Source: Candidatus Anderseniibacteriota bacterium (GTDB lineage: Bacteria > Patescibacteriota > Andersenbacteria > UBA10190). Taken from it: 64,000 nt of DNA. Shown piece after piece: positions 3,278 through 17,550 of this stretch; position 1 is the stretch's first letter, and each line of letters begins with the position of its first letter. The notes beneath the pieces were generated by a model. That model saw nothing but the letters and a program-made list of their open reading frames with translations, did not search any database and was not told the origin of the DNA. Position numbers and translations under genes: made by a program. The DNA lies in assembly GCA_040900375.1 (NCBI GenBank), contig JBBDZC010000008.1, positions 66,182-130,181 on the forward strand. The letters run 5' to 3'.

Positions 3278-3560
3278 AATTTAGGTAGTATTCCAGGGGA
3301 TAAAAGTGAGGAAAACGCTGTTAATAAAAGAGGGTTATTTCATATGTTATCCCTACTTACTAGAGGTGGGGTAAGTACTTGGGGATATAGTGGCTATTCA
3401 TCCACTCTTTATCCTAAGAATATCTCCAGACTTACACACAGTTTATCCTCAATATAAGACTAGTAACAAAGCTAATAAATAAGTCTTCCCCCAGATTTAC
3501 TCTTACCTACTACTATCTACTACTACCTTTATTAATTAGATATGTTTAAAGAAGAATTGT
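3278..3560. promoter_or_regulatory. dnaA-dnaN intergenic region, candidate oriC (DnaA-box variants plus AT-rich unwinding element)
   Basis: Four TTATCC(C/T)N variants occur here (GGGGATAAA, TTATCCCTA, TTATCCTAA, TTATCCTCA). A very AT-rich tract lies next to the dnaN start. Confidence 0.45.
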
Positions 3561-4664
3561 ATGAAATTTATTTGCACGAAAGAAAATTTAGTAGAGGGAT
3601 TAAGTAAGGTAGTTCCTTTGGCGGGGCGAAACACTCAACTTCCTATATTACAAAATATTTTACTGCAGTTACGAGATGGAGTTTTACACCTCACTAGTAC
3701 TGATCTTGAGATTGGGATTCATACTGTTGTCCCAGGAAAAATTGAGGATGAGGGATCATGTACGGTCGTAGCTCGAAAATTTATGGAGTATATTCAACAA
3801 TTACCACCACTAAACCCTCTTAAAATTGAACTTAAAGAGAGGCTTATGAATGTTAGCACTACTGGATTTAACGCCCAATTCCCTACAACTGCCGATGATG
3901 ATTTTCCTCTCCTACCTCGTGCCACCTCGTCTCGGGAAATTACTCTTAAAGCTAATAAGTTTTGTCAGGGATTAAATCGGACTATTTTTGCGGCAGCTCG
4001 AGATGATACCCGTCCAGAAATTCACAGTGTCTATACTACAGGCGAAGGTGAGCGTATTTATATTGCGGCGACTGATAGTTTTAGACTAGCGGAAGAGGTG
4101 ATGGGACTAGAGGAGGAAATAGAGTCTTTCTCTTTTTTACTTCCTTTAACTACTGCCCAGGAGGTGGTCCGTCTCTTTACCAACCAAGAGATCATCACTC
4201 TCTTACCACATGATAACTATATTGCTTTTCATGGTGACGGTATTGAACTTTCTTCACGGTTAATTGATGGTAAATATCCTGATTATCGCCAGATTATCCC
4301 TACTAATTTTACTACTACCGGGACGCTTAACCGCCAGGATTTAGTACGAGCCTTGAAGACTTTAGCGGTGTTCTTGCCCCGTGATTCCCGTCGTGTGCAG
4401 ATGGTGGTTCAACCCCAAGCCGGAAAAATAAAATTAGCGGTAGGGGGAAGTGAGTCAGGGGCAGGTACAGTTGATTTAGATTTTACTGGAGAAGGGGAGA
4501 CGTTAGAGATACTCTTTAATATTCAATACCTTTTGGATGGGGTCCAGTATATTCCTGGTGAGGAGTGTGTGGTTAAATTCGTGAGCGCGGTCGATCCGGC
4601 AATGTTTAGTCCTGTGCCTAATTCGACGGTCTATACCTACGTTGTGATGCCTATTCAAGTTTAG
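3561..4664 (+). CDS. dnaN: DNA polymerase III beta sliding clamp
   Basis: The 367 aa product has a three-domain clamp architecture and follows dnaA. Confidence 0.95.
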   Translation: MKFICTKENLVEGLSKVVPLAGRNTQLPILQNILLQLRDGVLHLTSTDLEIGIHTVVPGKIEDEGSCTVVARKFMEYIQQLPPLNPLKIELKERLMNVSTTGFNAQFPTTADDDFPLLPRATSSREITLKANKFCQGLNRTIFAAARDDTRPEIHSVYTTGEGERIYIAATDSFRLAEEVMGLEEEIESFSFLLPLTTAQEVVRLFTNQEIITLLPHDNYIAFHGDGIELSSRLIDGKYPDYRQIIPTNFTTTGTLNRQDLVRALKTLAVFLPRDSRRVQMVVQPQAGKIKLAVGGSESGAGTVDLDFTGEGETLEILFNIQYLLDGVQYIPGEECVVKFVSAVDPAMFSPVPNSTVYTYVVMPIQV

Positions 4665-4667
4665 CCT

Positions 4668-5831
4668 ATGTATATTAAAAACCTTGCCCTCACTAATTTT
4701 CGCAATTTTACCGATGTTGAAGAAATTACTTTTCCCGAGAATTCATTTTTAGTAGCGGCGGCGCCGAATGCTACAGGGAAGACAAATTTTCTGGAGGCGA
4801 TGACAATGTTATTGCGCGGGAAGTCATTTCGGGCCAGCGCCGAGGAGTGTGTCCGATGGGGAGAAGAGAGCTTCTTAGTTCGCGGCCAAGTGGTATCTCA
4901 AGCAGGCGAGGCATCAATTGCGGTCCGCTACTACCTACCTAGTAAAAAGATACGCATTGAAGAAAATAGCGTCCCCGCTTCACCAGTGACGTTTTTCGCG
5001 CACTACCCTTTTGTTCTTTTCTTGCCGGAAGATACTTTTTTGTTTAGCCGCGGCCCAGCGCTCCGTCGTAATTTTCTTAACCACATTTTATTAAGTGCTC
5101 CCACCTATCTGGCGGCACTCGTGCAATACCATCGTGCTTTGAAACAGCGCAATGCTCTCCTTAAAACAGCTCGATCATTTGCTGATGTTGAAGCGTGGAC
5201 ACAACTTCTCATTGAACATAGTGTGATGATCTGGAAACAGCGAGAGGGTTTTGTCAACTACCTTAATACGCATTTAAGCGAGGTATATACTTTATTTGCG
5301 GGGGAAGAATGTGAGCTTCAAGCACGTTTAGTTATGAGCAGCTCGAGTGAGCAGTACCCGGTTAATCTTCAGCAATCCTTTACTCAAGAACAGCGCTATG
5401 GCTACACAATTCATGGCCCACACCGCGATGATCTCGAGGTCACCAGTAAAGATCGTCCCCTCCGGGCAGCGTTGTCCCAAGGACAACTACGAAGCGCGGT
5501 GTTGGCGCTCAAGATTACAGCCTGGCGTTTTTTAAGTACGACGCTGCAAGAACAACCCCTACTCCTTCTGGATGAAGCTTTAAGTGAGTTAGACCATGAG
5601 CGCCAGGGCAGGCTACTTAAAAATTTACCTCCCGCCCAAACTCTCCTTACCTGCACGACTATTCCGCCGATTTTAGAGCAACGTGACAATGTTCATCTGC
5701 TTGATTTACGGTCAATTGCTGCACCGGAAGAAGATTTATCATGGCGGGATAGCCCAGAGCAGGCCGAGGGGCCGGGCGAATTATCTGTGGAAGATGAGGT
5801 AGCTGAAACAGTGTCAACGCCCGTATACTAA
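4668..5831 (+). CDS. recF: DNA replication and repair protein RecF
   Basis: The product has an N-terminal Walker A (APNATGKTNFLEA) and SMC-like signature regions. It carries an acidic C-terminal extension of about 40 aa. Confidence 0.9.
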   Translation: MYIKNLALTNFRNFTDVEEITFPENSFLVAAAPNATGKTNFLEAMTMLLRGKSFRASAEECVRWGEESFLVRGQVVSQAGEASIAVRYYLPSKKIRIEENSVPASPVTFFAHYPFVLFLPEDTFLFSRGPALRRNFLNHILLSAPTYLAALVQYHRALKQRNALLKTARSFADVEAWTQLLIEHSVMIWKQREGFVNYLNTHLSEVYTLFAGEECELQARLVMSSSSEQYPVNLQQSFTQEQRYGYTIHGPHRDDLEVTSKDRPLRAALSQGQLRSAVLALKITAWRFLSTTLQEQPLLLLDEALSELDHERQGRLLKNLPPAQTLLTCTTIPPILEQRDNVHLLDLRSIAAPEEDLSWRDSPEQAEGPGELSVEDEVAETVSTPVY

Positions 5832-5837
5832 ATAAGT

Positions 5838-6107
5838 ATGTTTCATCCTCTTCGGGCACTCTTTCGGCATACTAAGGTTGGCTGGGAAGAGACCGACATT
5901 AAATACTACATCGAGCGGTATTTTCAGAATCGGTTTAAGGCTGGTGTGCTCTACTGCGAAAAAGTTCACGAAGGGGTGGCGGTTATTCGGGTTAATTCTC
6001 CTCTTATCCAACAAGAAGTAGTGCTGTTAGAGTTTGAACTGGCTCGTGAATTACGGAAGCAGACTAACTATATTTTGCGACAATTAATTGTCTATACCTC
6101 ACGATAA
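5838..6107 (+). CDS. DUF721-family protein (the small gene usually found after recF)
   Basis: The 89 aa product has a DUF721-like C-terminal pattern (…GVAVIRVNSPLIQQEVVLLEFELARELRK…). Its position after recF fits. Confidence 0.6.
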   Translation: MFHPLRALFRHTKVGWEETDIKYYIERYFQNRFKAGVLYCEKVHEGVAVIRVNSPLIQQEVVLLEFELARELRKQTNYILRQLIVYTSR

Positions 6108-6131
6108 ATCTTTCCGCGGTCTTAAGGCGGT

Positions 6132-8948
6132 CTATTCAATCGTAATGGTGTGGGCTTCTGTTTGGGTATTATTACCGGTTTTGTCGTAGGCAATGACGAA
6201 GATATAGTATGTACCCGGACCAGGGGAATCAGGCCAAATTACTTCATAGCGATTAGCGGCTGTGGCCGCGGTAGTGCTGGTACGACCAATACGATTAGTA
6301 GTTGTCTGTCCATCTTTCTGATAAAGAACATCTACGAGTTCAATACCGGAATCATCGGTGGCGGTTACCTTAATGGTCTGTGGAAAGTCAGGGGGACTTA
6401 ATTTTTCATTATTGCGGGGAGTGTGAAGCGTGACTCGCGGAGCACTGTCATCAGGATTAATGATGAAGGTTCGGTGGCCGCGGCCAATCAAGTTATTATC
6501 AGTGATAGCTTGAATGAGGAGAGTTTTGCGGCCCGTAAAGTTGCCCGGGAAGGAGAAAGCTGTCTCAAAGGGCTCATCACCGCGGCGGCGAGCAATCTCC
6601 TCACCCTCGAGGAGAAAACGGACTTCGCGGATGGGAAACTTTGAATCAACCTCCACTTTAACAACAACTGGACTACTTTTTAAAATCGAGGTATTGGGTT
6701 CAGTAATGCGCACAATTGGCAAATCAGCGCTACTGGTGATACCACAGGTGGGAGTGGGCAGTGAGCTCGTGTACCGCACCTCGGCCTTTTTCTGATTATG
6801 CTTGTCGCGCCAGGCAGCGACCGCTCCTTCCCAGCGACTAAATTGGGGATCGCTCTCGGCCCGGGCCGGTGGTGGACCTAGGGGCCTACCTTTATTGATA
6901 TAAAACAAAATGCTATGGAGTTCTTTAAAGGTCACCGGTTGGCCAACAGCGACGGGACAGTCAGCGGTGTAAAGGGTCTGGGTCTCTTCTTCCCATTTAC
7001 CTTTCACTTCGGGTAATTCTCCTCGTAAAATGCCGTGAGGAATATCGCGGGAGGGTTCAGGTCGAACAAACTGTTCAATAGCTTTACCAGTGAGAGCGCG
7101 GCGCATAAAAGCGTTCCATAAGGGGGCAGCCGTTAAGCCACTATCAGAGCGGTTGTTCATCGGAGAATTGTCATTGTTACCTACCCATACACCAGCCACG
7201 AGTGAAGGTGTGTAGCCTACGGTCCAACCGTCGCGGAATTCTTGGGTTGTACCTGTTTTAGCGGCCACGGGACGACTACCTAACTGCAAAGGGGTGTTGG
7301 TACCAAAGACAAGGGCGCGGGCGCCATTATCAGAGATGACATTTGTCACTAAACGGGCAATTTGCGCTTCGAGCACTTGCTCGCCGCGTGAGTCTTCATC
7401 TTTAACCTCAAAAATAACGTCAGCTTTATTTTCCACTTTAAGAATAGCGCGGTGGGGATGGCGAATGCCATCGTTAGCAAAGACACCGTAAGCCGAGACC
7501 TCATCCACTAAGCGCACTTCACCGCCGCCGAGCACTAAAGAAAGTCCGTAGCGGTCAGGATCAGACAGTGAGGTCATGCCCAAGCGCTGGGCGAGAGCGG
7601 TTGCTTGCCGGACGCCGACGAGGTAGAGCGTTTGGACGGCGGGAATATTGAGTGAGTTAGCTAATGCTTGCCGCATAGTTACGGGGCCATTCTCGCTTAA
7701 GTTGTAGTTGCGTGGTTTATAACCTTGGCCAAAATCTGTTTCTACATCAACGAGGATGGTCTCGGGGGTAAAACCCGCCTGCCAGGCAGCGGCGTACACC
7801 ACCGGCTTAATCGAAGAGCCCGGGGAACGATGGCGAATTGAGACGTTGACATTACCGTCAATTTCTTCGTTGAAGTAGTCAATCGAACCAGTCATCGCGA
7901 GAATGTTGCCGTTCTTAGGATCGATGGCGACTAAGGCGGCATTGGAAGCTCCGAGCTGGCGCAGTTGTTCTTGTCGCTCTTTAAGCACTTCCTCGGCAAT
8001 CTTTTGGAGCTCGATGTTGAGTGACGTAATCACCTTAAGGCCCCCTTGTTCCACGACGCGCTCGCCATACTCGGCGTCGAGCTGCTCTTTAACATAAAAG
8101 ACAAAATGGGGGGCTTGGATAGATTCTTGGCGAGGCACAAAGACGAGTTCTTCTTTCTTGGCCGCGTCTGCTTCTGCGCGGCTGATCATATTGAGGCCAG
8201 CCATGCGATCTAAAATCAGCTCTTGGCGTTGCTTAAGATCTTCCATGTGCGAGCCATACGGTGAGTAGTAAGTGGGTGCCTGGGGTAAGGCGGCCAGGGT
8301 TGTCGCCTGGGCCAGGCTGACCTCGCTTGCTGGTTTATCAAAAAATGCCTGCGCAGCTGCTTCAATCCCGTACGCTTGGCTGCCGTAAGGGATGTCATTG
8401 AGGTACATCTCAAAAATTTCATCTTTACTAAAGCGCTGTTCTAGCTCGAGGGCGAGCACGGCCTCTTTAACCTTACGGCGGAGCGTGCGTTCGGGGGTGA
8501 GAATAGAGTTTTTAATCAACTGTTGAGTGATAGTCGAGCCGCCTTGGATCCGGCGCCCGGTTAAGGGTTTGAGCACACCGCCGCGCAAAATTCCTTTGAG
8601 ATCAAGTCCGTAGTGTTCATAGAATTGATCATCTTCAGCCGCTAAAGTTGCTTGGCGAATGAAACGGGAAATTTGATCCAACCGCACAGTTGTGCGATGG
8701 ACGTCGCCAATTTCATAGAGAAGATGTTGCCCCGTGGCATCGAAAATTTTTGTCGACTCTGATACACGCCGGGCATCAATATTTTGGGGATTAGGTAGAT
8801 CTTTACTCCACCACAAGACCGTGCCGGCACCCATAAGAAAGAGAACACCGCCGATGGTGAGAAAGAGCGGTAAACCTCGGCGTCCCAAGAGAAGAGGAAG
8901 GGCACGCCAATGGAATTTAGATTGACGGGAAAAGCGCCGCTGGGCCAT
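6132..8948 (-). CDS. Class A penicillin-binding protein (transglycosylase plus transpeptidase) with a C-terminal extension of about 300 aa
   Basis: The product has an N-terminal TM anchor and a GT51 motif (AAEDDQFYEHYG). The transpeptidase motifs SSIK and KTGT are present. The extra C-terminal region is beta-rich. Confidence 0.9.
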   Translation of the reverse strand: MAQRRFSRQSKFHWRALPLLLGRRGLPLFLTIGGVLFLMGAGTVLWWSKDLPNPQNIDARRVSESTKIFDATGQHLLYEIGDVHRTTVRLDQISRFIRQATLAAEDDQFYEHYGLDLKGILRGGVLKPLTGRRIQGGSTITQQLIKNSILTPERTLRRKVKEAVLALELEQRFSKDEIFEMYLNDIPYGSQAYGIEAAAQAFFDKPASEVSLAQATTLAALPQAPTYYSPYGSHMEDLKQRQELILDRMAGLNMISRAEADAAKKEELVFVPRQESIQAPHFVFYVKEQLDAEYGERVVEQGGLKVITSLNIELQKIAEEVLKERQEQLRQLGASNAALVAIDPKNGNILAMTGSIDYFNEEIDGNVNVSIRHRSPGSSIKPVVYAAAWQAGFTPETILVDVETDFGQGYKPRNYNLSENGPVTMRQALANSLNIPAVQTLYLVGVRQATALAQRLGMTSLSDPDRYGLSLVLGGGEVRLVDEVSAYGVFANDGIRHPHRAILKVENKADVIFEVKDEDSRGEQVLEAQIARLVTNVISDNGARALVFGTNTPLQLGSRPVAAKTGTTQEFRDGWTVGYTPSLVAGVWVGNNDNSPMNNRSDSGLTAAPLWNAFMRRALTGKAIEQFVRPEPSRDIPHGILRGELPEVKGKWEEETQTLYTADCPVAVGQPVTFKELHSILFYINKGRPLGPPPARAESDPQFSRWEGAVAAWRDKHNQKKAEVRYTSSLPTPTCGITSSADLPIVRITEPNTSILKSSPVVVKVEVDSKFPIREVRFLLEGEEIARRRGDEPFETAFSFPGNFTGRKTLLIQAITDNNLIGRGHRTFIINPDDSAPRVTLHTPRNNEKLSPPDFPQTIKVTATDDSGIELVDVLYQKDGQTTTNRIGRTSTTAATAANRYEVIWPDSPGPGTYYIFVIAYDKTGNNTQTEAHTITIE

Positions 8949-9024
8949 AGAGAGAGGCGAACTTAACTTTAGATGATTTTAAAACAGTAAGGAAGCAAAG
9001 AGTGGCTACTTCTCGCTATAGGAG

Positions 9025-9033
9025 TTATCCACA
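9025..9033 (+). promoter_or_regulatory. Perfect DnaA-box 9-mer (TTATCCACA) upstream of the PBP gene
   Basis: The 9-mer is an exact match to the consensus. It lies in the intergenic region about 77 nt upstream of the PBP start codon. Confidence 0.4.
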
Positions 9034-9185
9034 GCCGGTCGGCAATAGTAGGTGCCAGGTGAGGCAGGAGTCATGGTAGGTGTACTGTGCCTATTTTGAG
9101 TATGAATGCAAGGGGTCAATAATGATCGCCCCCATCGTGGGGTTTTAGCGGATAATTGTCAAATGGTCTTTAAGACAAGGATGCC

Positions 9186-10502
9186 CTACGTAATTTTACG
9201 CTCGGTGGGCTTAGCGGGATCAACTAAAAAACCTTTGAGATCTCGGCGACCGATAATTGCGTCGTAGTTCATGTGAGAGCGATCGACAATAAAAGCTTGA
9301 GTCTTAATGAGCCGCTCGCGTAGCTTAAGCGTCAATTCAATTACCGGCCGTGTTTGTTCGCCGAGGGCGCCGCGGACGTCTTTATGTTCTAGGATCGAGG
9401 TGTGGAGATTATATTTTTTTGCTAGAGCTTCATCAATAGTCGTGCGGTAGGCACCGGTATCAACTTTCGCTACGATCGCGTGCGCTTGCCCACTGCTGTC
9501 GAAAACTTCGATGGGCTCTTCAATACCGAGGATTGTCCGGCCCGAGATGTCTTCAATCTCTTGTTCAATGTCACTGGCAAATAAGTTCTTGGCGAGCGTT
9601 ACGCCCTTCTCGGGAGTGCTGACTTTCAGGCCTTCCACGCGGCGCAGGCGGGCTTTCAGGGGAGCCATGTTGGCAAACTGAATGCCGAGACCAGGGCGCG
9701 CATTGACTTCTAAAATCATCGGTCCATCATCACGGTCAATGGCGATATCCACGCCCGCGAAGTTAAGCCCGGTGGCCCGCGCGGTGCGTACGGCTAAGAG
9801 GAGAACCTCATTCCAGTGGGGAAGACGAATACCGGATAAGCTCAAGCGCTTCCCGGGCAGGACATCGATAATGCGCCCATGGTGGATGGCCAGCGTGGTC
9901 AGTCCGTGGACGAGATCAATACCCACGCCAATGCCCCCAGAGTGGAGATTAGCCCGGGCACCTGATTCTTCAGAGGGCAAACGCAGCATAGCCATGACGG
10001 GCACGAGGTTGTACACCAGGATGCGAATATCGGGAATGCCGCGGACGCAGTAAGGCTTCAGCTCCGCGTGGTTTTTAATCCGCTGTTCGAAAAAGGCTAC
10101 GTCAGAAATATTACCGAGTGTAAAGCTGCCATCGAGAATATCGAGTACTTGATTTTTAAGCTCGGGAATAAAAACTTCTGTTTTATCAGCTTTGACCCAG
10201 TTGCCTTTTTTATTACGCCCGAAAATTACCGTAATTCCGCCCCCGCCTGATGCGTTATTGGGCTTGAGAACGAAAGAAGAAGGTAGCTTGGTCCAGCGGA
10301 AGCGGCGGAGATCATGGCGTGATGTAATCACCCCGAATAAGCGGGGTGTGGCAATGCCTGCTTTCTGGAGGACTTTTTTTGTGATCAGTTTGTTATTCGC
10401 TGTCCGGGTGGCCGCTGGGGGGTTGACCTTGGTGATGTAATCGAGGGTGCGCGCGTTAAGACCGAGAACGTCTTTAAGATGTTTACCAAGGAAGAGGGCC
10501 AT
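9186..10502 (-). CDS. RimK-type ATP-grasp ligase fused to a C-terminal retropepsin-like aspartic protease domain
   Basis: The ATP-grasp part has SGGGGITV, LEVNARPGL and ATP-grasp N-terminal motifs. The C-terminal 150 aa or so contains VDTGAYRTT, a D-T-G-A aspartic protease signature. Confidence 0.75.
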   Translation of the reverse strand: MALFLGKHLKDVLGLNARTLDYITKVNPPAATRTANNKLITKKVLQKAGIATPRLFGVITSRHDLRRFRWTKLPSSFVLKPNNASGGGGITVIFGRNKKGNWVKADKTEVFIPELKNQVLDILDGSFTLGNISDVAFFEQRIKNHAELKPYCVRGIPDIRILVYNLVPVMAMLRLPSEESGARANLHSGGIGVGIDLVHGLTTLAIHHGRIIDVLPGKRLSLSGIRLPHWNEVLLLAVRTARATGLNFAGVDIAIDRDDGPMILEVNARPGLGIQFANMAPLKARLRRVEGLKVSTPEKGVTLAKNLFASDIEQEIEDISGRTILGIEEPIEVFDSSGQAHAIVAKVDTGAYRTTIDEALAKKYNLHTSILEHKDVRGALGEQTRPVIELTLKLRERLIKTQAFIVDRSHMNYDAIIGRRDLKGFLVDPAKPTERKIT

Positions 10503-10552
10503 AGTAATGTGTCGAAGGTAGCAAATTAGCAGGTATCAGATAGGCTAGGCTG

Positions 10553-12109
10553 TTATTGACCGTAACGGAGCAACTCGCGGAAGCGAATGTATTCGGTGAG
10601 GCGCAGGCCAGTCCAACGACCGAGCAGGATATTAATCGGAATAGCGAGCAACACTATTTCTGGGTACGAGAGCAAAAAGGTTCGCAGGAGCTGCCAGCTA
10701 ACGATGAAGTAGCAAGCAATACTTAGAAAGAGAGTCCAGGCGGTAGTGGTGAGGGCCGTGCGTGCACCCGCTTTAAATTGCACCGCAATAAATTCTTCGG
10801 CGAGGATGGTGAGAATTAAAATGGGGAAGATGGAAAAGGAGAGAGTGGCAGCTCGTTCTGTGACCACGCCGAATCCTAACAGCACCAGAATTGCTAAACT
10901 GGCGTTAGTAAGGACGAGCGCCATCCGGGGCAAGTACAACATCCGGAGTCGCCGCAAAAGAACGCGCGTCAGCGTGCCCGAGAGCAGCACGACGATAAAG
11001 ACGGCTAAGCCGTACTGCAAGCCCATTACCAAGAACGATAGAGTGGTCATGGCGGGCGTGATTAAACCAAAAGCTTTAATCCCAATCACCTGACGAGCAA
11101 AAGAGAGGATGGTGGCAATGACCGGCAACATCAGAATAAGAATAATGTTGTTAATCGGGACGCCACGATTAACAAGAAAGTTGAGGCCGAACGACATAAA
11201 ATTAGTGATGCCTAAGTCGCTGACTGCGCGTTCGCTAAAGGTGCCGAGCAGCCGGTGTTCAATCGGTGATTCAAAGATAATTGTGTGGGCCTGGTCAGCC
11301 GTTGTTGTGCTGTAGAGGAGGCCGAGTGCTTCAGGGCGAGTGAGTAAGACGTAGGCGGGATGGAGTAGTCCGAAGACGGATTGGGCCGTACGGGAGAGCA
11401 CCCCCAGGCGCGTTTCTGAAAGAATGATGATTCCCTTGCTCTCAATCGAGAGGTCAGTGGCGGAGAGGTTGGCGGTTTGTTGCCGTAGATGCTGGGCAAA
11501 CTTTGACAGGACGTTAGGGCCGACGCCGCCGGATGTCCAAGCAACCACGAGGTGAGCTTGCGCTAGCTCATTACGGGCATCGAGGAGTTGTTGTGTGAGT
11601 TCTTCTTCAATTAAAACTTCTGGACCACTGCTGCGGGCTTTGAGCACTAACAATAATAGGCCTTGCTCTGCCGCTTGTTGTTGACTTAACTGCAGTTGGT
11701 CTTCGGAAGCACTGGCATCGGCCAGGAGCACGACTACACGGTCGAAGACACGCACCTCCGTTGTATCTTCGCTTTGTCCCTGGTCAGCGGTAATGGTGAG
11801 TTTGACTTGATAGATGCCTGATTGTTGGTAGGTATGAGTTACCTTATCGCCCGTCGTGCGAATGCCATCGCCAAAGTCCCACAGAACTTCTTGGATTTGT
11901 GTTGCCTCGGGCACTACCGAGAGGGTCGTATCAAAAGTAATTGGTTTATCTACTAGGGTGCTTCGCGCTGAACCAATGACTGCTTGGAGGGGGGGTTGTT
12001 GCTCTGCCTCGTCCTCGGGCGGATTAGCTTGAGCAAAGACTAAGACAGGGAATATGAGTATTCCGGCTATAAAGAGAGCGCAGCTATATTGTAGTCGTTG
12101 AGCGATCAT
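10553..12109 (-). CDS. Secreted PKD-domain protein with a C-terminal 7-TM domain (partner of the ATP-grasp/retropepsin gene)
   Basis: The product has a signal peptide and a PKD motif (WDFGDG…THTYQQSGIYQVKL). The C-terminal 230 aa or so contain about seven hydrophobic helices. Confidence 0.7.
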   Translation of the reverse strand: MIAQRLQYSCALFIAGILIFPVLVFAQANPPEDEAEQQPPLQAVIGSARSTLVDKPITFDTTLSVVPEATQIQEVLWDFGDGIRTTGDKVTHTYQQSGIYQVKLTITADQGQSEDTTEVRVFDRVVVLLADASASEDQLQLSQQQAAEQGLLLLVLKARSSGPEVLIEEELTQQLLDARNELAQAHLVVAWTSGGVGPNVLSKFAQHLRQQTANLSATDLSIESKGIIILSETRLGVLSRTAQSVFGLLHPAYVLLTRPEALGLLYSTTTADQAHTIIFESPIEHRLLGTFSERAVSDLGITNFMSFGLNFLVNRGVPINNIILILMLPVIATILSFARQVIGIKAFGLITPAMTTLSFLVMGLQYGLAVFIVVLLSGTLTRVLLRRLRMLYLPRMALVLTNASLAILVLLGFGVVTERAATLSFSIFPILILTILAEEFIAVQFKAGARTALTTTAWTLFLSIACYFIVSWQLLRTFLLSYPEIVLLAIPINILLGRWTGLRLTEYIRFRELLRYGQ

Positions 12110-12124
12110 GGGGAGATCTTAAAT

Positions 12125-12604
12125 TTAGCGGGCGATTGATAATGATTCTTCGGTTAGGCAGAGTGCGGCCGCGAGCGCGTCGGCGGCATCGTCAGGTTGG
12201 GGGACAGTGGGAAGTTTAAGCCGTCGTGTTACTAACGTCTGAACTTGCTGTTTATCGGCCGCCCCATACCCGGTGAGTCGCGATTTAATTTGGAGAGGCG
12301 TTAAAGTGTGGACGGGAATACGGTGTTGGCGCAGGATATAGAGCAGCACACCACTTGTTTGGGCCGTGATGATAGCCGTCTTGCTATTGGCCCCAAAGAA
12401 GACTGTCTCGACAACAGCATGATCTGGTTTATAGGTTGTTAGTAATGTTGTCAAATCCTGACCAATGGTCCATAACCGATCGGGTGTGGCCTCATGGGAG
12501 GGGGTAGTTAAGCAACCACAGCGTACAAAGGACTGGGCAACGGTGGTGTTAATTACGCCAAACCCCGTGCGGGCAATCCCGGGATCTAAGCCAAGTATCA
12601 CCAT
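12125..12604 (-). CDS. ruvC: Holliday junction resolvase RuvC
   Basis: The 159 aa product begins MVILGLDPGIARTGFGV, an RNase H-like fold with the catalytic Asp. Confidence 0.9.
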   Translation of the reverse strand: MVILGLDPGIARTGFGVINTTVAQSFVRCGCLTTPSHEATPDRLWTIGQDLTTLLTTYKPDHAVVETVFFGANSKTAIITAQTSGVLLYILRQHRIPVHTLTPLQIKSRLTGYGAADKQQVQTLVTRRLKLPTVPQPDDAADALAAALCLTEESLSIAR

Positions 12605-12867
12605 ATCTTAAAGTGTCGTTACCTAAAGAGTGCGAGCTTTCTGGTAGTGTACCTTTCTTTCAGGGTAAGCACCACGACCTTTTAGTGAGTCAGTTTTAAT
12701 AATAGTTAGCATAGACGGCGATTACGTCACTATGTTGTTCGAGGGCGCGCAGTAGCTGATTGACTGCCTGCTTGAGCCGCGAGGGTAATATCTCGTTTTA
12801 CTGTCAGTGGCGGCTTTCTTGTGCTTAATTTGGTGACACTTAGTATGACCTGACATGGCCGGCAGAC

Positions 12868-13617
12868 TTAGGGCGCGCGCAGCGGCCCAAAAATTTCCCG
12901 GACTTCTTGATGACGGGCAGAGACAGTGGTGTTGTGCAGTTGCGCCTTAGCGCCCACGGCTACAACCCCGTCACGCGCTCCGTTAATGCGGCTGTCTATC
13001 AGCTGACAATGATTGGAGGTGGTATACACCCCCACCGAGCCGCGCTGAATCTGCACCGCCTGGGCTGTCACTACACTGTCGGCAAGACAGCTGATTGCCG
13101 GTGAAGCGTCGCTGATATGTACGGCGTCGAGTTGGCCTTCGCTCTGGGCGGTAAATATCAGACCTGACCACGCTTGGTTCTCCGGGTGAACTTCATTGCT
13201 GGCCAGGATTATTGGTTGGGCGCGACTACCGCGCGCTTGGAGTTTACCAGTAATGATTAAGCCAGCAAATTCGTGAAAATATAGTTGGGTTCCGGGCGCG
13301 AGCGTCAACGTCGCGCCGGGAGCGACGTGTGTCTGGCTACTGACTAAGACAGGATTATCGGCGGCGGTGAGAGCTAGGTCTGCCTGGATGACAGGTGGCA
13401 GGTAAGTACCAAGGGCGTGACGAGGGGTGTGGCGGTTAGGCTCTTCTTCTAAGAAAGGAATAGCCAGACGATTTTGCCAGACCTGGGGATGCGCGCGCTC
13501 GAACCAGATGATGCCGGGAATCGAGAGCACGGCGAGTGCTAATAGTAGTGATGTAATAGAGAAGGGGTTTTTAGACATACCATGATAGTTGTCTATAATA
13601 GTATACCGTGCATACAT
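12868..13617 (-). CDS. Hypothetical secreted protein
   Basis: The product has a signal peptide or TM segment (…ITSLLLALAVLSIPGIIWF). The true start is probably an internal Met. I recognise no domain. Confidence 0.4.
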   Translation of the reverse strand: MYARYTIIDNYHGMSKNPFSITSLLLALAVLSIPGIIWFERAHPQVWQNRLAIPFLEEEPNRHTPRHALGTYLPPVIQADLALTAADNPVLVSSQTHVAPGATLTLAPGTQLYFHEFAGLIITGKLQARGSRAQPIILASNEVHPENQAWSGLIFTAQSEGQLDAVHISDASPAISCLADSVVTAQAVQIQRGSVGVYTTSNHCQLIDSRINGARDGVVAVGAKAQLHNTTVSARHQEVREIFGPLRAP

Positions 13618-13779
13618 GCAAAAAATCTTCTACTAATAACTGTAGACATGAGAAGGAAAGTGTCGAGGAACTCTGTCGTGACGAGCACCACAGAAGCCCG
13701 AACTGGGCACAAACCCCACAAAAGCAATGCCTACAGTTATTAATAGAAGAACTCCCTACCTTAGCCTGCCGAGGGGGTA

Positions 13780-14856
13780 GTGTCAACGATGGCAGCGGCA
13801 GGGCGGCGGCAGGGAGTGTATACTAAAACTATGGCTATCGAAGAAGCAAAAATGACAGCCGTGACGCCTATAGCGGCAGACGATGACCGCGCCCTCGATG
13901 CGACGCTGCGGCCCCGCCGTCTCGGGGAGTTTATTGGCCAGGTGCAGCTTAAAAAGTCCTTGAGTATTTTTTTAGCGGCGGCGCGGGAACGCGGGGAGGC
14001 GCTCGAGCATGTGCTCTTGGCCGGCCCCCCAGGGTTGGGGAAGACCAGCTTGGCGCAGATTATTGCCCGTGAACTAGGGACAAATATCCGTGTCACGGCT
14101 GGCCCGGCTTTAACTAAAATTGCCGACCTGGCTGGTATTCTCACTAATTTACAGTCGGGTGATGTTCTCTTTATTGATGAGATGCATCGGCTGCAGCGTT
14201 CCATCGAAGAGGTGCTCTATCCGGCCATGGAAGATTTTGCTTTAGATTTAGTGGTGGGCCAGGGGCCGGGGGCCAAGACGCTGCGACTTGATTTACCGCC
14301 TTTTACGCTGGTGGGCGCAACCACGCGGGTGGGTATGCTCGGCGCGCCGCTCCGTGATCGTTTTGGTATGACGTACCGCTTGTCGTTTTACAGTGAAGAG
14401 GAAATGCAGGCAATTCTCAAACGATCAGCGCAGCTTCTCGGCATTCAAGTGGCGCCAGACGCGCTGCTGGAGATTGCCGGGCGCTGTCGGCGGACGCCGC
14501 GCATTGGCAATCGCTTGCTCAAGCGGGTGCGCGACTACGCCCAGGTTAAAAAGCGCGCCACCATTACTCGTGAGCTGGTTCAGGAGGCCCTCGAGCTCCT
14601 CGAAGTCGACGAGCGCGGGTTAGACATTATTGACCGCCGCGTCCTCCAGGCAATGATCGAGCAGTTTAGCGGCGGGCCGGTGGGGCTGCAAACACTCGCC
14701 GCCGTAACGGCCGAAGAACAACACACGCTAGAAGAGGTTGTTGAGCCTTTTCTGCTGCAGTGCGGCTTCATTCAGCGGACGCCGCGAGGGCGCCTGGTAA
14801 CCCCAGCGGGGTTTGCGCACTTTGATGGCGCTGATCGACCGGGTACGCTGCTGTAG
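13780..14856 (+). CDS. ruvB: Holliday junction branch-migration ATPase RuvB
   Basis: The product contains LRP…GEFIGQ and [11 protein letters not shown] (AAA+). The true start is probably at 13831 or 13852. Confidence 0.9.
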
Positions 14857-15443: not shown

Positions 15444-15585
15444 TATTTCTGCGCTATTGACCCCATAGTGATATAGTTAGGAGTAGTTAAAAAACAAACA
15501 TTCAAGTATAAATATGTGGCGAGGTAATCGGTTATTGCGAAGATGCCGGTTAGGGAGGCTCACGGTACAACACTGCCCTAGTTTG

Positions 15586-17550
15586 ATGTTTCGATACGGC
15601 CCGAGTGCCGTATTTTTGTTGCTTGTAGTTTTTGCGCCGGCAGTCCGCGCGGCTGGTACTGGCCCCGTCATTATTAATGAGATTATGTGGGATGGAGTTG
15701 AGTATCTTGAGCTCTTTAATATCACGACTGCCGATATTGTTCTGGCGGGGTGGTCACTCCAACGTCAGCAGCCAGGCGGCGTGCCCAAGACAATTGTGAA
15801 TTTTCCCGCTGGTAGTGTCATCAGCGCCCAGGGGTATTACCTCATCGAGAAACAGGAAGCGGCAACACTGGCAGCGGCTGATCTTGTCGTGCCGGGATTG
15901 ACGCTGCTCAACGCTGGCGAACTGGTAACGCTCCTCCAGGCAGAGGGTAGCACTGTTGATGTTGCTAATCAGCTTGGCAGTTGGTTCGCGGGGGAAAACA
16001 ACGACACGGGCACGGCCATGGAGCGGTCTCGCGCTGCCGACGGCACCGTGGCCGATAACTGGCATACCTCTACTGCCAGTGGTGAACGCGGGGGGACACC
16101 GCGGGCGTCTAATAGTATACCGGTAGTCAATACCGCCCCCACGGCTGTTATTACGGCAGCGGCAACTGGCTTCGTTGGAGAATCTTTAAACTTCTCCGCT
16201 GAAGATTCCAGTGATCCTGAAGCCGATGAGCTTACCTATGACTGGTCGTGGGATGATGGTACTACGGATACGGGAGCCACAGTAATGCACGTGTTCAGCC
16301 AGGCAGGAACTTACACTATCCGGCTCACTGTCAGCGATGGAACAGAAGAAGATGAAGCAGTGCAGAATGTTGTGATTACCACCCCGGTCTATCCCGACAC
16401 GATTGTCATTAATGAATTTTTGCCCAATCCGGTAGGCGCTGATACCGCCGGCGAGTTCATCGAGCTTAAAAATATCGGCTCGGCTGCGGTGGTCCTGGCA
16501 GGCTGGCAACTTGACGATGCCGTCGGCGGCAGTTCAACCTTTACCATCGGTGCGGGCACGAGCTTGGGTGCGGGCGCTATTATTTCGTTGGCGCGGACGG
16601 AGACTAACCTGGCGCTCAACAACACCCAGGATACCGTTCGCCTACTTGATCCTGCGGGAGTAGTTAAATCTTCCTTTACTTACACGAGTGCGCCTGAAGG
16701 GCAGTCATATAATCACACAGGAGTAACATATAGTTTGAGTACCACGGTGACACCCGGACAAGAAAATCGCGTGACGGTCCCGGTAGAGAGTGATGATGAA
16801 GAAGAGGCAGAAGAAGCGGAAGATGGTGACAATCCGGCAGTGGCTGGCCGGGTGGCGGGTGCGGCCGTGAAGACGGTCGCGCTTGCGGATGTGCGCGAGG
16901 AAGAGCCCGGTACGTTGGTGCAGACAGAAGGCGTGGTCAGCGCGCCGCCGGGGATCGTGGGTGCTAAGCTCTTGTACTTAGCAGGCTCGGGTATCCAGGT
17001 CTATTTCACAGCCGGTGATGTACTGGCACTCAAGCTGGGCGATCGAGTAAAACTTACGGGGAGCCTTAGCTCCTACCAGGAGGAGACACGACTGAAAGTC
17101 GCCGGGACAGATATTACGAAAGTACATAGTGGGGAGCCACCGCTACCGCATCAGTTCGAAACGGGCGCGATCGATGAAGCGGCGGAGGGATCCCTGGTGA
17201 TTATCCAAGGCCACGTCACCGAAACTAGCGGTGATACCTTTTATGTTGACGATGGCAGTGGCGAAGTCAAAATTTTCATTCCTAAGACAACGAAAATTGA
17301 TAAGCCACCAATGAAACAGGGAATGGCAGTAACAATTACCGGTGTCGTTTCCCAAACGCGATCAGGCTACCGCATCTTGCCGCGTTTTCAAGAAGATATT
17401 CGGCTTGGTTTAGTGGCGGGGCTGACGACCTTTCCCGCTACTGGTCGGATACCGGCGGGTATGTTGGGCTTGGGCGTTGTTATCTTTTACCTGCTGCAAC
17501 AAGCCCAGCGAGCGCGGGAACCGCTCCTGCCGCGAAGCAGGATTGCGTAA
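15586..17550 (+). CDS. Secreted or membrane-anchored protein with two lamin-tail domains and a PKD domain
   Basis: The product has a signal peptide. Two LTD-like segments are present (VIINEIMWDG…ELFN and IVINEFLPNPVGADTAGEFIELKN), plus a PKD motif (WSWDDGTTDTGATVMHVFSQAGTYTIRLTVSDG) and a C-terminal TM anchor. The ORF track start at 15514 lacks a signal peptide. Confidence 0.7.
   Translation: MFRYGPSAVFLLLVVFAPAVRAAGTGPVIINEIMWDGVEYLELFNITTADIVLAGWSLQRQQPGGVPKTIVNFPAGSVISAQGYYLIEKQEAATLAAADLVVPGLTLLNAGELVTLLQAEGSTVDVANQLGSWFAGENNDTGTAMERSRAADGTVADNWHTSTASGERGGTPRASNSIPVVNTAPTAVITAAATGFVGESLNFSAEDSSDPEADELTYDWSWDDGTTDTGATVMHVFSQAGTYTIRLTVSDGTEEDEAVQNVVITTPVYPDTIVINEFLPNPVGADTAGEFIELKNIGSAAVVLAGWQLDDAVGGSSTFTIGAGTSLGAGAIISLARTETNLALNNTQDTVRLLDPAGVVKSSFTYTSAPEGQSYNHTGVTYSLSTTVTPGQENRVTVPVESDDEEEAEEAEDGDNPAVAGRVAGAAVKTVALADVREEEPGTLVQTEGVVSAPPGIVGAKLLYLAGSGIQVYFTAGDVLALKLGDRVKLTGSLSSYQEETRLKVAGTDITKVHSGEPPLPHQFETGAIDEAAEGSLVIIQGHVTETSGDTFYVDDGSGEVKIFIPKTTKIDKPPMKQGMAVTITGVVSQTRSGYRILPRFQEDIRLGLVAGLTTFPATGRIPAGMLGLGVVIFYLLQQAQRAREPLLPRSRIA

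What the first reader, a model, noticed from the sequence alone, without database searches (positions are those of the whole stretch)
9186..12109. An ATP-grasp (RimK-like) ligase is fused in one polypeptide to a retropepsin-like protease, next to a PKD-7TM protein
Iyer, Aravind and colleagues described a conserved cassette of a RimK-type ATP-grasp, a 7TM protein and a retropepsin-like (COG4067) protease. It is predicted to make or tag a peptide at the membrane. Here the ligase and protease are one 438 aa protein, with VDTGAYRTT near the C-terminus. The 7TM partner has an extracellular PKD domain plus about 200 aa of unknown fold instead of the usual inactive transglutaminase. ruvC sits 15 bp upstream in the same orientation. 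The fusion strengthens the functional link between ligase and protease, and the cassette is still uncharacterised experimentally.
Basis: partly seen in the sequence, partly recalled or inferred. Interest (0 to 1): 0.65.

Follow-up and report, generated by a model that had tools for sequence, protein, structure and literature searches.

The report
Fused glutamate-ligase/protease with membrane partner
An ultra-small (CPR) bacterium carries a stripped-down relative of the Pseudomonas "rlo" stress-tolerance operon in which the peptide ligase and the retropepsin-type protease that probably trims its product are one cytoplasmic protein next to a seven-helix membrane protein; this is a real and conserved variant of a system that has been studied experimentally since 2025.

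Summary
Window 9186-10502(-) encodes a 438-aa protein with an RloC/RimK-like ATP-grasp ligase (aa 10-294) joined to a retropepsin-like PF05618 protease (aa 327-432, DTGA at 348-351). Window 10553-12109(-) encodes a signal peptide, a PKD domain, a ~178-aa alpha/beta domain and a 7TM_transglut module. ruvC ends 15 nt upstream.

The fusion is not an assembly artefact. All catalytic residues are invariant in 37 homologues. The fused gene occurs in at least 253 species-level Patescibacteria genomes. In 75 of 78 loci the 7TM gene lies directly upstream.

The interpretation needs updating. The cassette is the rloABC system, studied genetically and structurally in P. aeruginosa in 2025. A ligase-protease hybrid, RimBK, was shown to be proteolytically active in 2025. 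RimBK has the opposite domain order, a true RimK ligase and no 7TM partner.

This locus is therefore an independent fusion. It has an Rlo-type ligase, a cytoplasmic protease (no signal peptide, no disulfide cysteines, short flap) and a non-transglutaminase ectodomain.

Most likely function: membrane-tethered synthesis and trimming of oligo- or poly-alpha-glutamate. The product and the role of the 7TM protein remain inferred. Verdict: new variant of a known kind, moderate interest.

The parts
9186..10502 (-). Gene for the 438-aa ligase-protease fusion protein (no TM segment, no signal peptide)
   Evidence: ORF; domains. It is 100% identical to P0001 from a Candidatus Andersenbacteria MAG. The highest 19-residue Kyte-Doolittle hydropathy is 1.41, so there is no TM segment.
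9621..10475 (-). ATP-grasp ligase domain (aa 10-294), RloC/TIGR02291-like and RimK-related
   Evidence: TIGR02291 E 3e-73 and PF14397 E 1.2e-61. K80, E139-Q140-R141, D158, R160, N185, G189-G190, D252, E265 and N267 are invariant in 37 homologues. The closest solved fold is RimK (5zct, 7qys, 4iwx; Foldseek E 4e-8; phmmer hits).
9525..9620 (-). Linker (aa 295-326), acidic, partly low model confidence
   Evidence: pLDDT is below 50 for aa 310-325. The sequence is STPEKGVTLAKNLFASDIEQEIEDISGRTILG.
9207..9524 (-). Retropepsin-like aspartic protease domain (aa 327-432, PF05618), short-flap, cysteine-free
   Evidence: PF05618 scores 34.8 bits against a gathering score of 27, with weak RloA3, RloA2, RloA and RimB hits. 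It aligns to the RloA crystal structures 9g58 and 9g59. K346, D348-T349-G350-A351, R385, D407-R408 and G418-R419-R420-D421 are invariant. The domain has no Cys.
9450..9461 (-). Catalytic DTGA motif (aa 348-351)
   Evidence: This stretch translates to DTGA and is invariant in alignment A2.
10553..12109 (-). Gene for the 518-aa RloB-like membrane partner
   Evidence: ORF; Pfam and NCBIfam hits. At least 120 clusters share the same PKD+7TM architecture.
12026..12109 (-). Signal peptide or N-terminal anchor (aa 1-28)
   Evidence: A hydrophobic segment spans aa 2-20 and is followed by VFA-QA.
11744..11995 (-). Extracytoplasmic PKD domain (aa 39-122)
   Evidence: PF18911 E 1.8e-16. Foldseek matches the ColH and ColG PKD domains (E 9e-7, TM 0.87, rmsd 1.6 A).
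11210..11743 (-). Extracytoplasmic alpha/beta (Rossmann-like) domain of unassigned family (aa 123-300), in the place of the inactive transglutaminase of RloB
   Evidence: The AF2 model shows a beta-alpha-beta repeat with pLDDT above 90. There is no Pfam or PDB sequence match. Foldseek gives only loose alpha/beta hits at rmsd ~10 A. D131, E168, W191-T192-x-G194-x-x-G197, Q206, Q243 and Y253 are conserved.
10553..11200 (-). 7TM_transglut module (aa 304-518): seven TM helices, N-terminus outside, C-terminus inside
   Evidence: PF14402 E 8e-29 and RloB model E 7e-20, 7TM part only. Seven hydrophobic segments lie at aa 313-492. The loop at 382-397 and the tail at 493-518 are K/R-rich.
12125..12604 (-). 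ruvC, 15 nt upstream on the same strand (conserved neighbour; a functional link is not implied)
   Evidence: NCBIfam RuvC equivalog, 179.5 bits against a cut-off of 163. RuvC lies directly upstream of the 7TM gene in 65 of 75 loci.
6132..8948 (-). Class A PBP (PBP1A-like, with a C-terminal Big_7 Ig domain), 237 nt downstream on the same strand
   Evidence: Transgly E 2.6e-60 and Transpeptidase E 2.7e-23. It lies within 300 nt of the fusion gene in 28 loci and within 5.5 kb in 50 of 78 loci.

Best explanation
This is the Patescibacterial (CPR) version of the Rlo/Rim type of system: a membrane-tethered enzyme that builds and trims an acidic peptide, most likely oligo- or poly-alpha-L-glutamate.

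- Ligase. The N-terminal ATP-grasp domain is RloC-like and RimK-related. It uses ATP and Mg2+ to add residues, probably glutamate, either as a free chain or onto an acceptor carboxylate.
- Protease. The C-terminal retropepsin domain dimerises when the ligase oligomerises. It would bind the acidic chain through the conserved K346, R385 and R408 and cut it at the D348 dyad. This would set chain length or release the product. By analogy with RimB acting on RimK, it may also stimulate the ligase.
- Membrane partner. The adjacent 7TM protein has its N-terminus outside and its C-terminal tail inside. It probably docks the enzyme at the membrane. It would either pass the product outward or couple the enzyme's activity to what its PKD and Rossmann-like ectodomain meets outside the cell.

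Unlike Pseudomonas RloA, which is secreted, the protease here works in the cytoplasm.

Shown here: domain identities, intact and conserved catalytic and poly-Glu-binding residues, membrane topology, gene linkage, and taxonomic spread.

Inferred: glutamate as the substrate, protease dimerisation, physical docking to the 7TM protein, and any export or sensing role.
For: Ligase. The ATP and Mg2+ site residues are invariant across 37 homologues at 62-84% identity to the window protein. The nearest solved structure is RimK, the poly-alpha-L-glutamate synthetase.

Protease. The domain aligns with the RloA crystal structures. It keeps K-x-DTGA, R385 and R408. Counting residues in the alignment, their spacing matches that of RloA K46, D48, R114 and R137. 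Alanine substitution of the poly-Glu-coordinating residues lowers cleavage, R114A and R137A most strongly, and both fail to complement (PMC12239564).

Cytoplasmic location. The fusion protein has no signal peptide and no TM segment. The protease domain has no Cys. Secreted RloA orthologues carry a conserved disulfide, while cytosolic RimB does not.

Linkage to the 7TM gene. The 7TM gene lies directly upstream in 75 of 78 loci from many Patescibacteria lineages. Nine of 150 representative relatives are direct 7TM-to-ATP-grasp fusions, including P0349 and P0361. This fits a cytoplasmic C-tail that docks the ligase.

Precedents. RimB trims RimK-made Glu tails to about 4-5 residues (PMC7343187). 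RimB stimulates the RimK ATPase about fourfold and is needed for efficient poly-alpha-Glu synthesis (PMC11957791). An active RimBK hybrid exists. Deleting rloB or rloC suppresses the rloA1-3 triple mutant.
Against: - No biochemical data exist for any member of this clade.
- The ligase falls below the TIGR02291 equivalog cut-off (246.6 against 314.2 bits), and the protease scores far below every RloA or RimB model cut-off. Substrate specificity may therefore differ.
- Pfam places the ligase in 'sugar-transfer associated' ATP-grasps. One relative carries a fused YdjC domain, which hints at a carbohydrate-linked acceptor.
- Sister lineages add one to three further ATP-grasp ligases, so the product there may be a heteropeptide rather than poly-Glu.
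- The Rlo paradigm places the protease outside the cytoplasm, which is the opposite of this locus.
- The fusion model has only moderate confidence (pLDDT 64), and no dimer or complex model was made.
Confidence: 0.6

Rival explanations
1. It is a RimK/RimB-type ribosome modifier. The fusion would add and trim the Glu tail of ribosomal protein S6 (RpsF), and the 7TM gene would be an unrelated or merely regulatory neighbour.
For: The ligase is RimK-related. RimB/RimK and the RimBK hybrid act on poly-Glu RpsF (PMC7343187, PMC11957791). The protease here is cytoplasmic like RimB.
Against: The 7TM gene is adjacent in 75 of 78 loci, and 7TM-ligase fusions exist. The domain order is the reverse of RimBK. 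No rpsF lies in the window, so its C-terminus could not be examined.
Confidence: 0.1
2. It is an outside-in signalling device. The 7TM protein would be a receptor whose PKD and Rossmann-like ectodomain senses an external ligand or the host surface. It would switch a cytoplasmic 'write-erase' polyglutamylation enzyme that acts on protein targets.
For: The topology is N-terminus out and C-terminus in, with a conserved basic cytoplasmic tail. The ectodomain varies by lineage: PKD plus alpha/beta domain, none, or transglutaminase. This is the pattern expected of sensor modules. Ligase plus protease is a writer/eraser pair, as in RimK/RimB.
Against: 48 of 75 loci have a bare 7TM protein with no ectodomain at all, so sensing through an ectodomain cannot be the core function. 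No signalling domain or target was found. No acidic-tailed ORF lies nearby.
Confidence: 0.12
3. It is an envelope-precursor modifier. The ligase would amidate a carboxylate on a cell-wall or glycan precursor, such as a stem peptide or uronic acid, rather than make poly-Glu, working alongside the neighbouring PBP1A.
For: The Pfam family is named 'sugar-transfer associated'. A relative is fused to YdjC. PBP1A lies directly downstream in 28 loci and within 5.5 kb in 50 of 78 loci. Pseudomonas rlo mutants show cell-shape, beta-lactam and hypo-osmotic phenotypes.
Against: The protease keeps the residues that bind poly-Glu in RloA. The PBP1A and ruvC linkage may only reflect conserved gene order near the origin, since dnaA-dnaN-recF lie next to it. 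In sister lineages tyrS and extra ligase genes separate the cassette from PBP1A.
Confidence: 0.13
4. The retropepsin domain is no longer a protease. It would serve only as a poly-anion-binding or ligase-activating module.
For: In many MATCAP-fused relatives the DTG motif is degenerate (NTGR, DTSK, DPGK, EPGK, NLAH). A non-catalytic role for the domain therefore seems to exist in the wider family. RimB also has a ligase-stimulating role.
Against: In this clade D348-T349-G350-A351, K346, R385, R408 and GRRD are invariant in all 37 aligned sequences. They are also intact in the fusion-only representatives down to about 44% identity.
Confidence: 0.05

Closest known systems
rloABC operon of Pseudomonas aeruginosa (RloA secreted retropepsin, RloB inactive-transglutaminase 7TM protein, RloC ATP-grasp; Lormand et al., mBio 2025, PMC12239564)
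   Same: It has the same three modules: a TIGR02291/PF14397-type ATP-grasp, a PF14402 7TM module and a PF05618 retropepsin with DTGA. The basic residues aligned with those that coordinate poly-Glu in RloA are conserved. The genes are adjacent and co-oriented.
   Different: - The protease is fused to the C-terminus of the ligase and is cytoplasmic. It has no signal peptide and no disulfide cysteines.
- The segment holding the flap is about 30 residues shorter. The spacing from K to R is 39 residues here, against 68-70 in 9g58 and 9g59 (counted from the alignments).
- The ectodomain is PKD plus a Rossmann-like domain, not an inactive transglutaminase.
- The host is a CPR bacterium. The paper reports that 96% of RloB hits are from Proteobacteria.
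- All scores fall below the RloA, RloB and TIGR02291 cut-offs.
RimBK hybrid enzyme (e.g. Desulfotalea psychrophila DP2392) and the RimK/RimB pair (Little et al., JBC 2025, PMC11957791; Grenga et al., PLoS Genet 2020, PMC7343187)
   Same: A glutamate-ligase-type ATP-grasp and a PF05618 retropepsin sit in one cytoplasmic polypeptide. The pair has a demonstrated add-and-trim logic for Glu chains, and the protease stimulates the ligase.
   Different: - The domain order is opposite: RimB is N-terminal in RimBK and C-terminal here.
- The ligase is RloC-like, not RimK (57 bits against the 143-bit rimK_fam cut-off).
- This fusion is consistently paired with a 7TM gene.
- RimBK is reported mainly in Flavobacteriales and Rhodobacterales, and this fusion in Patescibacteria.

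It is therefore an independent fusion event.
ATP-grasp / 7TM-transglutaminase / COG4067 peptidase neighbourhood predicted by comparative genomics (Iyer, Abhiman, Burroughs & Aravind 2009; from my own memory and from Pfam family names, since the paper could not be read)
   Same: It has the same three-component association. The Pfam name '7TM ... usually fused to an inactive transglutaminase' describes the partner family.
   Different: This locus has a ligase-protease fusion and a non-transglutaminase ectodomain. I could not check whether that paper already lists this fused architecture.
ATP-grasp-retropepsin-MATCAP (PF08014) triple fusions, 7TM-ATP-grasp fusions and other relatives found here
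   Same: They share the N-terminal ATPgrasp_ST-retropepsin core at 35-50% identity to the query.
   Different: The relatives add a MATCAP-type metallocarboxypeptidase, a YdjC domain or a second ATP-grasp, and often have a degenerate DTG. The window protein is the minimal form with an intact protease.

Membership tests
   TIGR02291 matches with E 3e-73 at 246.6 bits over aa 10-294. That is below the curated cut-off of 314.2 bits. It is still by far the best ligase model, with rimK_fam at only 57 bits.
Rlo system (RloABC, PMC12239564) | RloB: an inactive transglutaminase ectodomain fused to the 7TM module | tested here: not met
   The 7TM part matches (PF14402 E 8e-29; NF052267 profile positions 314-507 only, 71 bits against a cut-off of 900). 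The ectodomain is PKD plus a beta-alpha-beta domain with no transglutaminase signal.
Rlo system (RloABC, PMC12239564) | RloA: a separate, secreted retropepsin with a signal peptide and a conserved disulfide | tested here: not met
   The protease is the C-terminal domain of the cytoplasmic ligase. It has no signal peptide or TM segment and no Cys.
Rlo system (RloABC, PMC12239564) | Retropepsin active site DTG-A plus the basic residues that coordinate poly-Glu (RloA K46, R114, R137) | tested here: met
   K346-x-D348-T349-G350-A351, R385 and R408 are aligned to 9g58 and 9g59 and are invariant in 37 homologues.
Rlo system (RloABC, PMC12239564) | The three modules are encoded together in one co-oriented cluster | tested here: met
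   There is a 50-nt gap between the 7TM gene and the fusion gene. The genes are adjacent in 75 of 78 loci.
Rlo system (RloABC, PMC12239564) | Function in hypo-osmotic or envelope stress tolerance, with loss of the ligase or 7TM gene suppressing loss of the protease | not testable with these tools
   This requires genetics. The host is an uncultured CPR organism.
RimBK hybrid (PMC11957791) | RimB domain at the N-terminus of a RimK ligase | tested here: not met
   Here the ATP-grasp spans aa 10-294 and the protease spans aa 327-432, which is the reverse order. RimBK is described.
RimBK hybrid (PMC11957791) | Ligase belongs to the RimK family proper | tested here: not met
   TIGR00768 scores 57.4 bits against a cut-off of 143.4. 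PRK10446 scores 27.8 bits against a cut-off of 331.
RimBK hybrid (PMC11957791) | Proteolysis of poly-Glu tails | not testable with these tools
   Only residue conservation could be assessed.
Pfam PF05618 (retropepsin-like 'Zn_protease', clan AA) | Score above the gathering threshold and a DTG motif | tested here: met
   The score is 34.8 bits against a gathering score of 27, and DTGA is at aa 348-351.
ATP-grasp superfamily (active enzyme) | Conserved ATP-binding Lys, the R-x-N-x-H-x-GG loop, and the Mg2+ ligands D...E-x-N | tested here: met
   K80, R183-A-N185-L-H-S-G189-G190, D252 and E265-V-N267 are all invariant or nearly invariant in alignment A2 and align to RimK.
PKD domain | Sequence and fold match | tested here: met
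   PF18911 E 1.8e-16. Foldseek matches ColH PKD 4u6t with TM 0.87 and rmsd 1.6 A.

The most novel reading that the evidence does not exclude
The CPR cassette may show the core logic of Rlo-type systems. The 7TM protein would not export a substrate to an external protease. It would be a membrane platform or sensor that gates a cytoplasmic ligase-plus-protease enzyme. The acidic-peptide output of that enzyme would tune cell-envelope synthesis, given the PBP1A neighbour. In Andersenbacteria, gain of a PKD and Rossmann-like ectodomain coincides with loss of the extra ligases. This would be an adaptation for reading the host or external surface. If correct, it would recast the Pseudomonas Rlo model and define a polyglutamylation-based transmembrane control system that is widespread in ultra-small bacteria.
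Probability: 0.12. Interest if true: 0.75.

Novelty: new variant of a known kind. Interest (0 to 1): 0.45.

Why it matters
Rlo and Rim systems affect antibiotic tolerance, biofilm formation and osmotic survival in Pseudomonas. Their in-vivo product, and what RloB and RloC do, are still unknown.

This natural variant gives three constraints.
- The protease is tethered to the ligase and sits in the cytoplasm.
- In most lineages the 7TM partner has no ectodomain at all.
- The cassette is retained across many lineages of genome-reduced Patescibacteria.

Together these argue for a direct ligase-protease-7TM complex. They also show that periplasmic cleavage is not essential to this kind of system.

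The locus also offers a compact two-gene construct for reconstitution in vitro. It extends the known range of Rlo-like cassettes well beyond the Proteobacteria, which provide 96% of RloB hits in the 2025 paper.

Tried and rejected
- Substrate ORF. I searched all six frames of the window for ORFs with Glu/Asp-rich C-termini and found none. The only run of five or more D/E residues is inside the LTD-PKD surface protein at 15514-17550. The 237-nt gap after the fusion gene holds no plausible small acidic ORF.
- RNA elements. An Rfam scan of 5800-14000 at E up to 1 returned nothing.
- Promoters and terminators. The scan found no terminator-like site between the cassette genes, but these consensus patterns may not apply to CPR bacteria.
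- Transglutaminase remnant. I rejected the idea that the middle domain is a degraded transglutaminase. It has a beta-alpha-beta architecture and no Transglut_core signal.
- Paralogues and rpsF. The window holds no paralogue of either half of the fusion and no rpsF.
- Ectodomain donor. I tested whether the neighbouring LTD-PKD protein donated the ectodomain. Only the PKD domain aligns, at 34% identity, so there is no support.
- Iyer et al. 2009 is not held in the library.
- The third large homologue search was deliberately not used on the middle domain.


Full report
**Observation**

Window 9186-10502(-) encodes 438 aa and 10553-12109(-) encodes 518 aa. ruvC is at 12125-12604(-), and its stop codon lies 15 nt before the start of the 7TM gene.

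The 438-aa protein matches three models:
- PF14397 (ATPgrasp_ST) over aa 19-290, E 1.2e-61.
- NCBIfam TIGR02291 (rimK_rel_E_lig) over aa 10-294, E 3e-73 and 246.6 bits. This is below the 314-bit equivalog cut-off, but far above rimK_fam at 57 bits.
- PF05618 over aa 355-431, at 34.8 bits against a gathering score of 27.

VDTGAYRTT is at aa 347-355.

The 518-aa protein has a PKD domain at aa 39-121 and PF14402 (7TM_transglut) at aa 324-513. Its match to the RloB model NF052267 covers only the 7TM portion of that model.

**Is the fusion real, and are both halves functional?**

The window protein is identical to a protein from a Candidatus Andersenbacteria MAG. At least 120 clusters at 62-84% identity share the same four-Pfam architecture. 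In a 37-sequence alignment the following residues are invariant:
- Ligase: K80, E139-Q140-R141, D158, R160, N185, G189-G190, D252, E265 and N267.
- Protease: K346, D348-T349-G350-A351, R385, D407-R408 and G418-R419-R420-D421.

The ligase residues align to RimK, and RimK is the best structural match (Foldseek E 4e-8).

The protease domain aligns to the RloA crystal structures 9g58 and 9g59. I counted residues in those alignments. K346, D348, R385 and R408 have the same relative spacing as RloA K46, D48, R114 and R137. Alanine substitution of these coordinating residues lowers poly-Glu cleavage, with R114A and R137A having the strongest effect and failing to complement (PMC12239564). The one difference is the K-to-R spacing, which is 39 residues here against 68-70 in RloA. 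The flap-containing segment is therefore about 30 residues shorter.

Retropepsins carry one DTG per chain and form the dyad in a homodimer.

**Topology**

The fusion protein has no hydrophobic segment, with a maximum 19-residue hydropathy of 1.41. It has no Cys in the protease domain. Secreted RloA orthologues have a signal peptide and a conserved disulfide. Cytosolic RimB has neither. The protease here is therefore cytoplasmic.

The partner protein has these parts:
- an N-terminal signal peptide or anchor at aa 2-20;
- an acidic ectodomain at aa 21-312;
- seven hydrophobic helices at aa 313-492;
- a K/R-rich loop at aa 382-397 and a K/R-rich tail at aa 493-518.

This gives a topology with the N-terminus outside and the C-terminus inside.

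**The ectodomain**

The AlphaFold model has a mean pLDDT of 80.9, and above 90 for aa 40-290. It shows a PKD beta-sandwich followed by a beta-alpha-beta domain at aa 125-297.

Foldseek confirms the PKD domain (ColH and ColG PKD, TM 0.87). It gives only loose alpha/beta matches for the middle domain. Pfam, a profile search against PDB sequences and per-member scans found nothing significant.

The domain is not a transglutaminase. It is a Rossmann-like domain of no assigned family. Its conserved residues include D131, E168, W-T-x-G-x-x-G at aa 191-197, Q206, Q243 and Y253.

**Distribution and context**

A scan of one genome per GTDB species found 253 genomes that encode a relative. All of the best 80 loci cover query residues from about 1-15 up to 402-438. 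They come from Andersenbacteria, Portnoybacteria, Spechtbacterales, Woesebacteria, Blackburnbacteria, Paceibacterota and other Patescibacteria.

I compared translated ORFs from these loci with the window's proteins:
- 78 loci have an intact fused ORF.
- 75 of those have the 7TM gene directly upstream. The other three are cut by contig ends.
- 65 of the 75 have ruvC directly upstream of the 7TM gene.
- PBP1A lies within 300 nt downstream in 28 loci and within 5.5 kb in 50.

Only 27 loci carry the PKD and alpha/beta ectodomain: 26 of the 31 loci at 59% identity or more, plus L074 at 47%. The other 48 have a bare 7TM protein of about 213-290 aa, confirmed as PF14402. In the bare-7TM lineages the fusion gene is nearly always followed by one to three further ATP-grasp genes. 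These are a ~500-aa type and/or RimK-like genes of 290-340 aa. The extra ligases are absent from the window and from the Andersen-type loci, with the single exception of L019.

The window's cassette is therefore the minimal two-gene form with the most elaborate ectodomain.

The linkage to ruvC, to yebC in the sister lineages, and to PBP1A sits next to dnaA-dnaN-recF. It may simply reflect conserved gene order near the origin.

**The wider family**

HMMER against 1.84 billion representatives found 397 proteins at E below 1e-30. I built HMMs from my own alignments and used them to sort the top 150 by architecture:

| Architecture | Count |
|---|---|
| Ligase-retropepsin | 49 |
| Ligase-retropepsin-MATCAP (PF08014 metallocarboxypeptidase) | 34 |
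| Ligase-MATCAP, retropepsin not detected | 18 |
| Ligase only | 38 |
| 7TM-ligase fusion | 9 |
| Ligase-retropepsin plus a second ATP-grasp | 2 |

The 7TM-ligase group includes one protein with a Transglut_core ectodomain. One ligase-retropepsin protein also carries a YdjC domain.

The 7TM-ligase fusions fit a ligase that docks on the cytoplasmic C-terminus of the 7TM protein.

Alignment of the protease domains shows two patterns. The fusion-only proteins keep K-x-DTGA, R, DR and GRRD. Many MATCAP-fused forms have degenerate motifs such as NTGR, DTSK, DPGK, EPGK and NLAH. The domain therefore seems able to persist without catalysis elsewhere in the family, but it is catalytically intact in this clade.

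**What is already known**

The cassette corresponds to rloABC of P. aeruginosa (PMC12239564).
- RloA proteins are secreted retropepsins that cleave runs of eight or more Glu.
- The rloA1-3 triple mutant is sensitive to hypo-osmotic conditions and to antibiotics, and has cell-shape and biofilm defects.
- Deleting rloB or rloC suppresses these defects.

For the paralogous Rim system:
- RimK adds Glu to RpsF and RimB trims the tail to about 4-5 residues (PMC7343187).
- RimB is a dimeric retropepsin-like endopeptidase. [quoted passage not shown]
- A natural RimBK hybrid, with RimB N-terminal to RimK, is proteolytically active. It occurs in 12% of rim-positive genomes, mainly Flavobacteriales and Rhodobacterales.

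Neither paper mentions Patescibacteria, this domain order or a 7TM-linked fusion. The mBio paper reports that 96% of RloB hits are from Proteobacteria. Full-text searches for the relevant identifiers and term combinations found nothing else.

**Mechanism**

I judge the most likely function to be a membrane-tethered 'add and trim' enzyme for an acidic peptide, most probably oligo- or poly-alpha-L-glutamate.
- The ligase domain polymerises Glu. This is inferred from its homology to RimK and its intact active site.
- Oligomerisation of the ligase brings two retropepsin domains together. This is inferred.
- The retropepsin domains bind and cut the chain. This is supported by conservation of the catalytic and poly-Glu-binding residues. 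They may also activate the ligase, by analogy with RimB.
- The 7TM protein anchors the enzyme. It either exports the product or modulates activity. This is inferred from the near-obligate gene adjacency and from the 7TM-ligase fusions.

I put confidence at about 0.6 for the overall kind of system. Confidence in the product and in the 7TM role is lower.

The rival readings are scored in the rivals section. They are S6 tail modification, a receptor-gated polyglutamylation switch, amidation of an envelope or glycan precursor linked to PBP1A, and a non-catalytic protease domain.

**Verdict**

What remains new is the variant itself.
- It is an independent fusion with the ligase N-terminal and the protease C-terminal.
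- The ligase is Rlo-type rather than RimK-type.
- The protease is cytoplasmic and has a short flap.
- The partner is an RloB-like 7TM protein carrying a PKD and Rossmann-like ectodomain.
- The arrangement is conserved across CPR bacteria.

I rate it as a new variant of a known kind, with moderate interest (0.45).

Noticed in passing
L029-L080 (e.g. L035:8335-10145, L049:8336-9838, L073:8349-11765): In Patescibacteria lineages whose 7TM protein has no ectodomain, the fusion gene is followed by one to three additional ATP-grasp ligase genes. These are a ~500-aa CPSase_L_D2/ATP-grasp_3 type and/or RimK-like genes of 290-340 aa. They are absent from the window and from the Andersen-type loci, apart from a RimK-like ORF at L019:6135-7016. 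Gain of the ectodomain and loss of the extra ligases go together.
   Followed up: partly
P0254, P0258, P0244 and about 50 other representatives: Many relatives are triple fusions of ATP-grasp, retropepsin and MATCAP (PF08014, the family of the eukaryotic tubulin detyrosinase). In these the retropepsin DTG is often degenerate (NTGR, DTSK, DPGK and others). P0254 (EKD49309.1) is mis-named 'ketopantoate hydroxymethyltransferase'. A ligase joined to a MATCAP carboxypeptidase in bacteria echoes the eukaryotic tubulin ligase/carboxypeptidase pairs.
   Followed up: partly
window 15514-17550 (+): A 678-aa LTD-PKD-LTD surface protein contains the only acidic run in the window (SDDEEEAEEAEDGD, near aa 427). 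Similar LTD-PKD proteins are syntenic, lying upstream of yebC-ruvC, in the sister lineages (L035:3231-4742, L049:3715-5274). Its PKD domain is 34% identical to the PKD domain of the 7TM protein.
   Followed up: partly
window 12868-13617 (-): A 249-aa protein with an N-terminal hydrophobic segment and no Pfam match lies between ruvB and ruvC. It is conserved at the same position in the Andersen-type loci only. The sister lineages have yebC just upstream of ruvC, a position where this window has no yebC.
   Followed up: no
window 6132-8948 (-): The class A PBP directly downstream carries an extra C-terminal bacterial Ig (Big_7) domain. Its adjacency to the cassette is fixed in the Andersen-type loci. 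This is notable because the Rlo phenotypes in Pseudomonas point to peptidoglycan homeostasis.
   Followed up: partly
window 1874-5831 (+): dnaA, dnaN and recF lie immediately beside the PBP1A gene, so the cassette is close to the replication origin. Cumulative GC skew rises monotonically across the whole window, with no switch point.
   Followed up: no
L076, and many loci titled 'uncultured Candidatus Saccharibacteria': The record titles look unreliable. L076 is labelled as a Gammaproteobacteria MAG, yet it has the same 7TM, fusion and three-RimK layout as the Woesebacteria chromosome L073. Many Andersenbacteria-like contigs are titled Saccharibacteria.
   Followed up: no
L055:7001-8320: tblastn finds the fusion at 49% identity, but no intact ORF was recovered under genetic code 11. 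This could be a frameshift, a pseudogene or an alternative code (UGA reassignment).
   Followed up: no
window 17612-18658 (+): A CofD-family (2-phospho-L-lactate transferase-like) gene lies in this reduced genome. It is unrelated to the finding.
   Followed up: no
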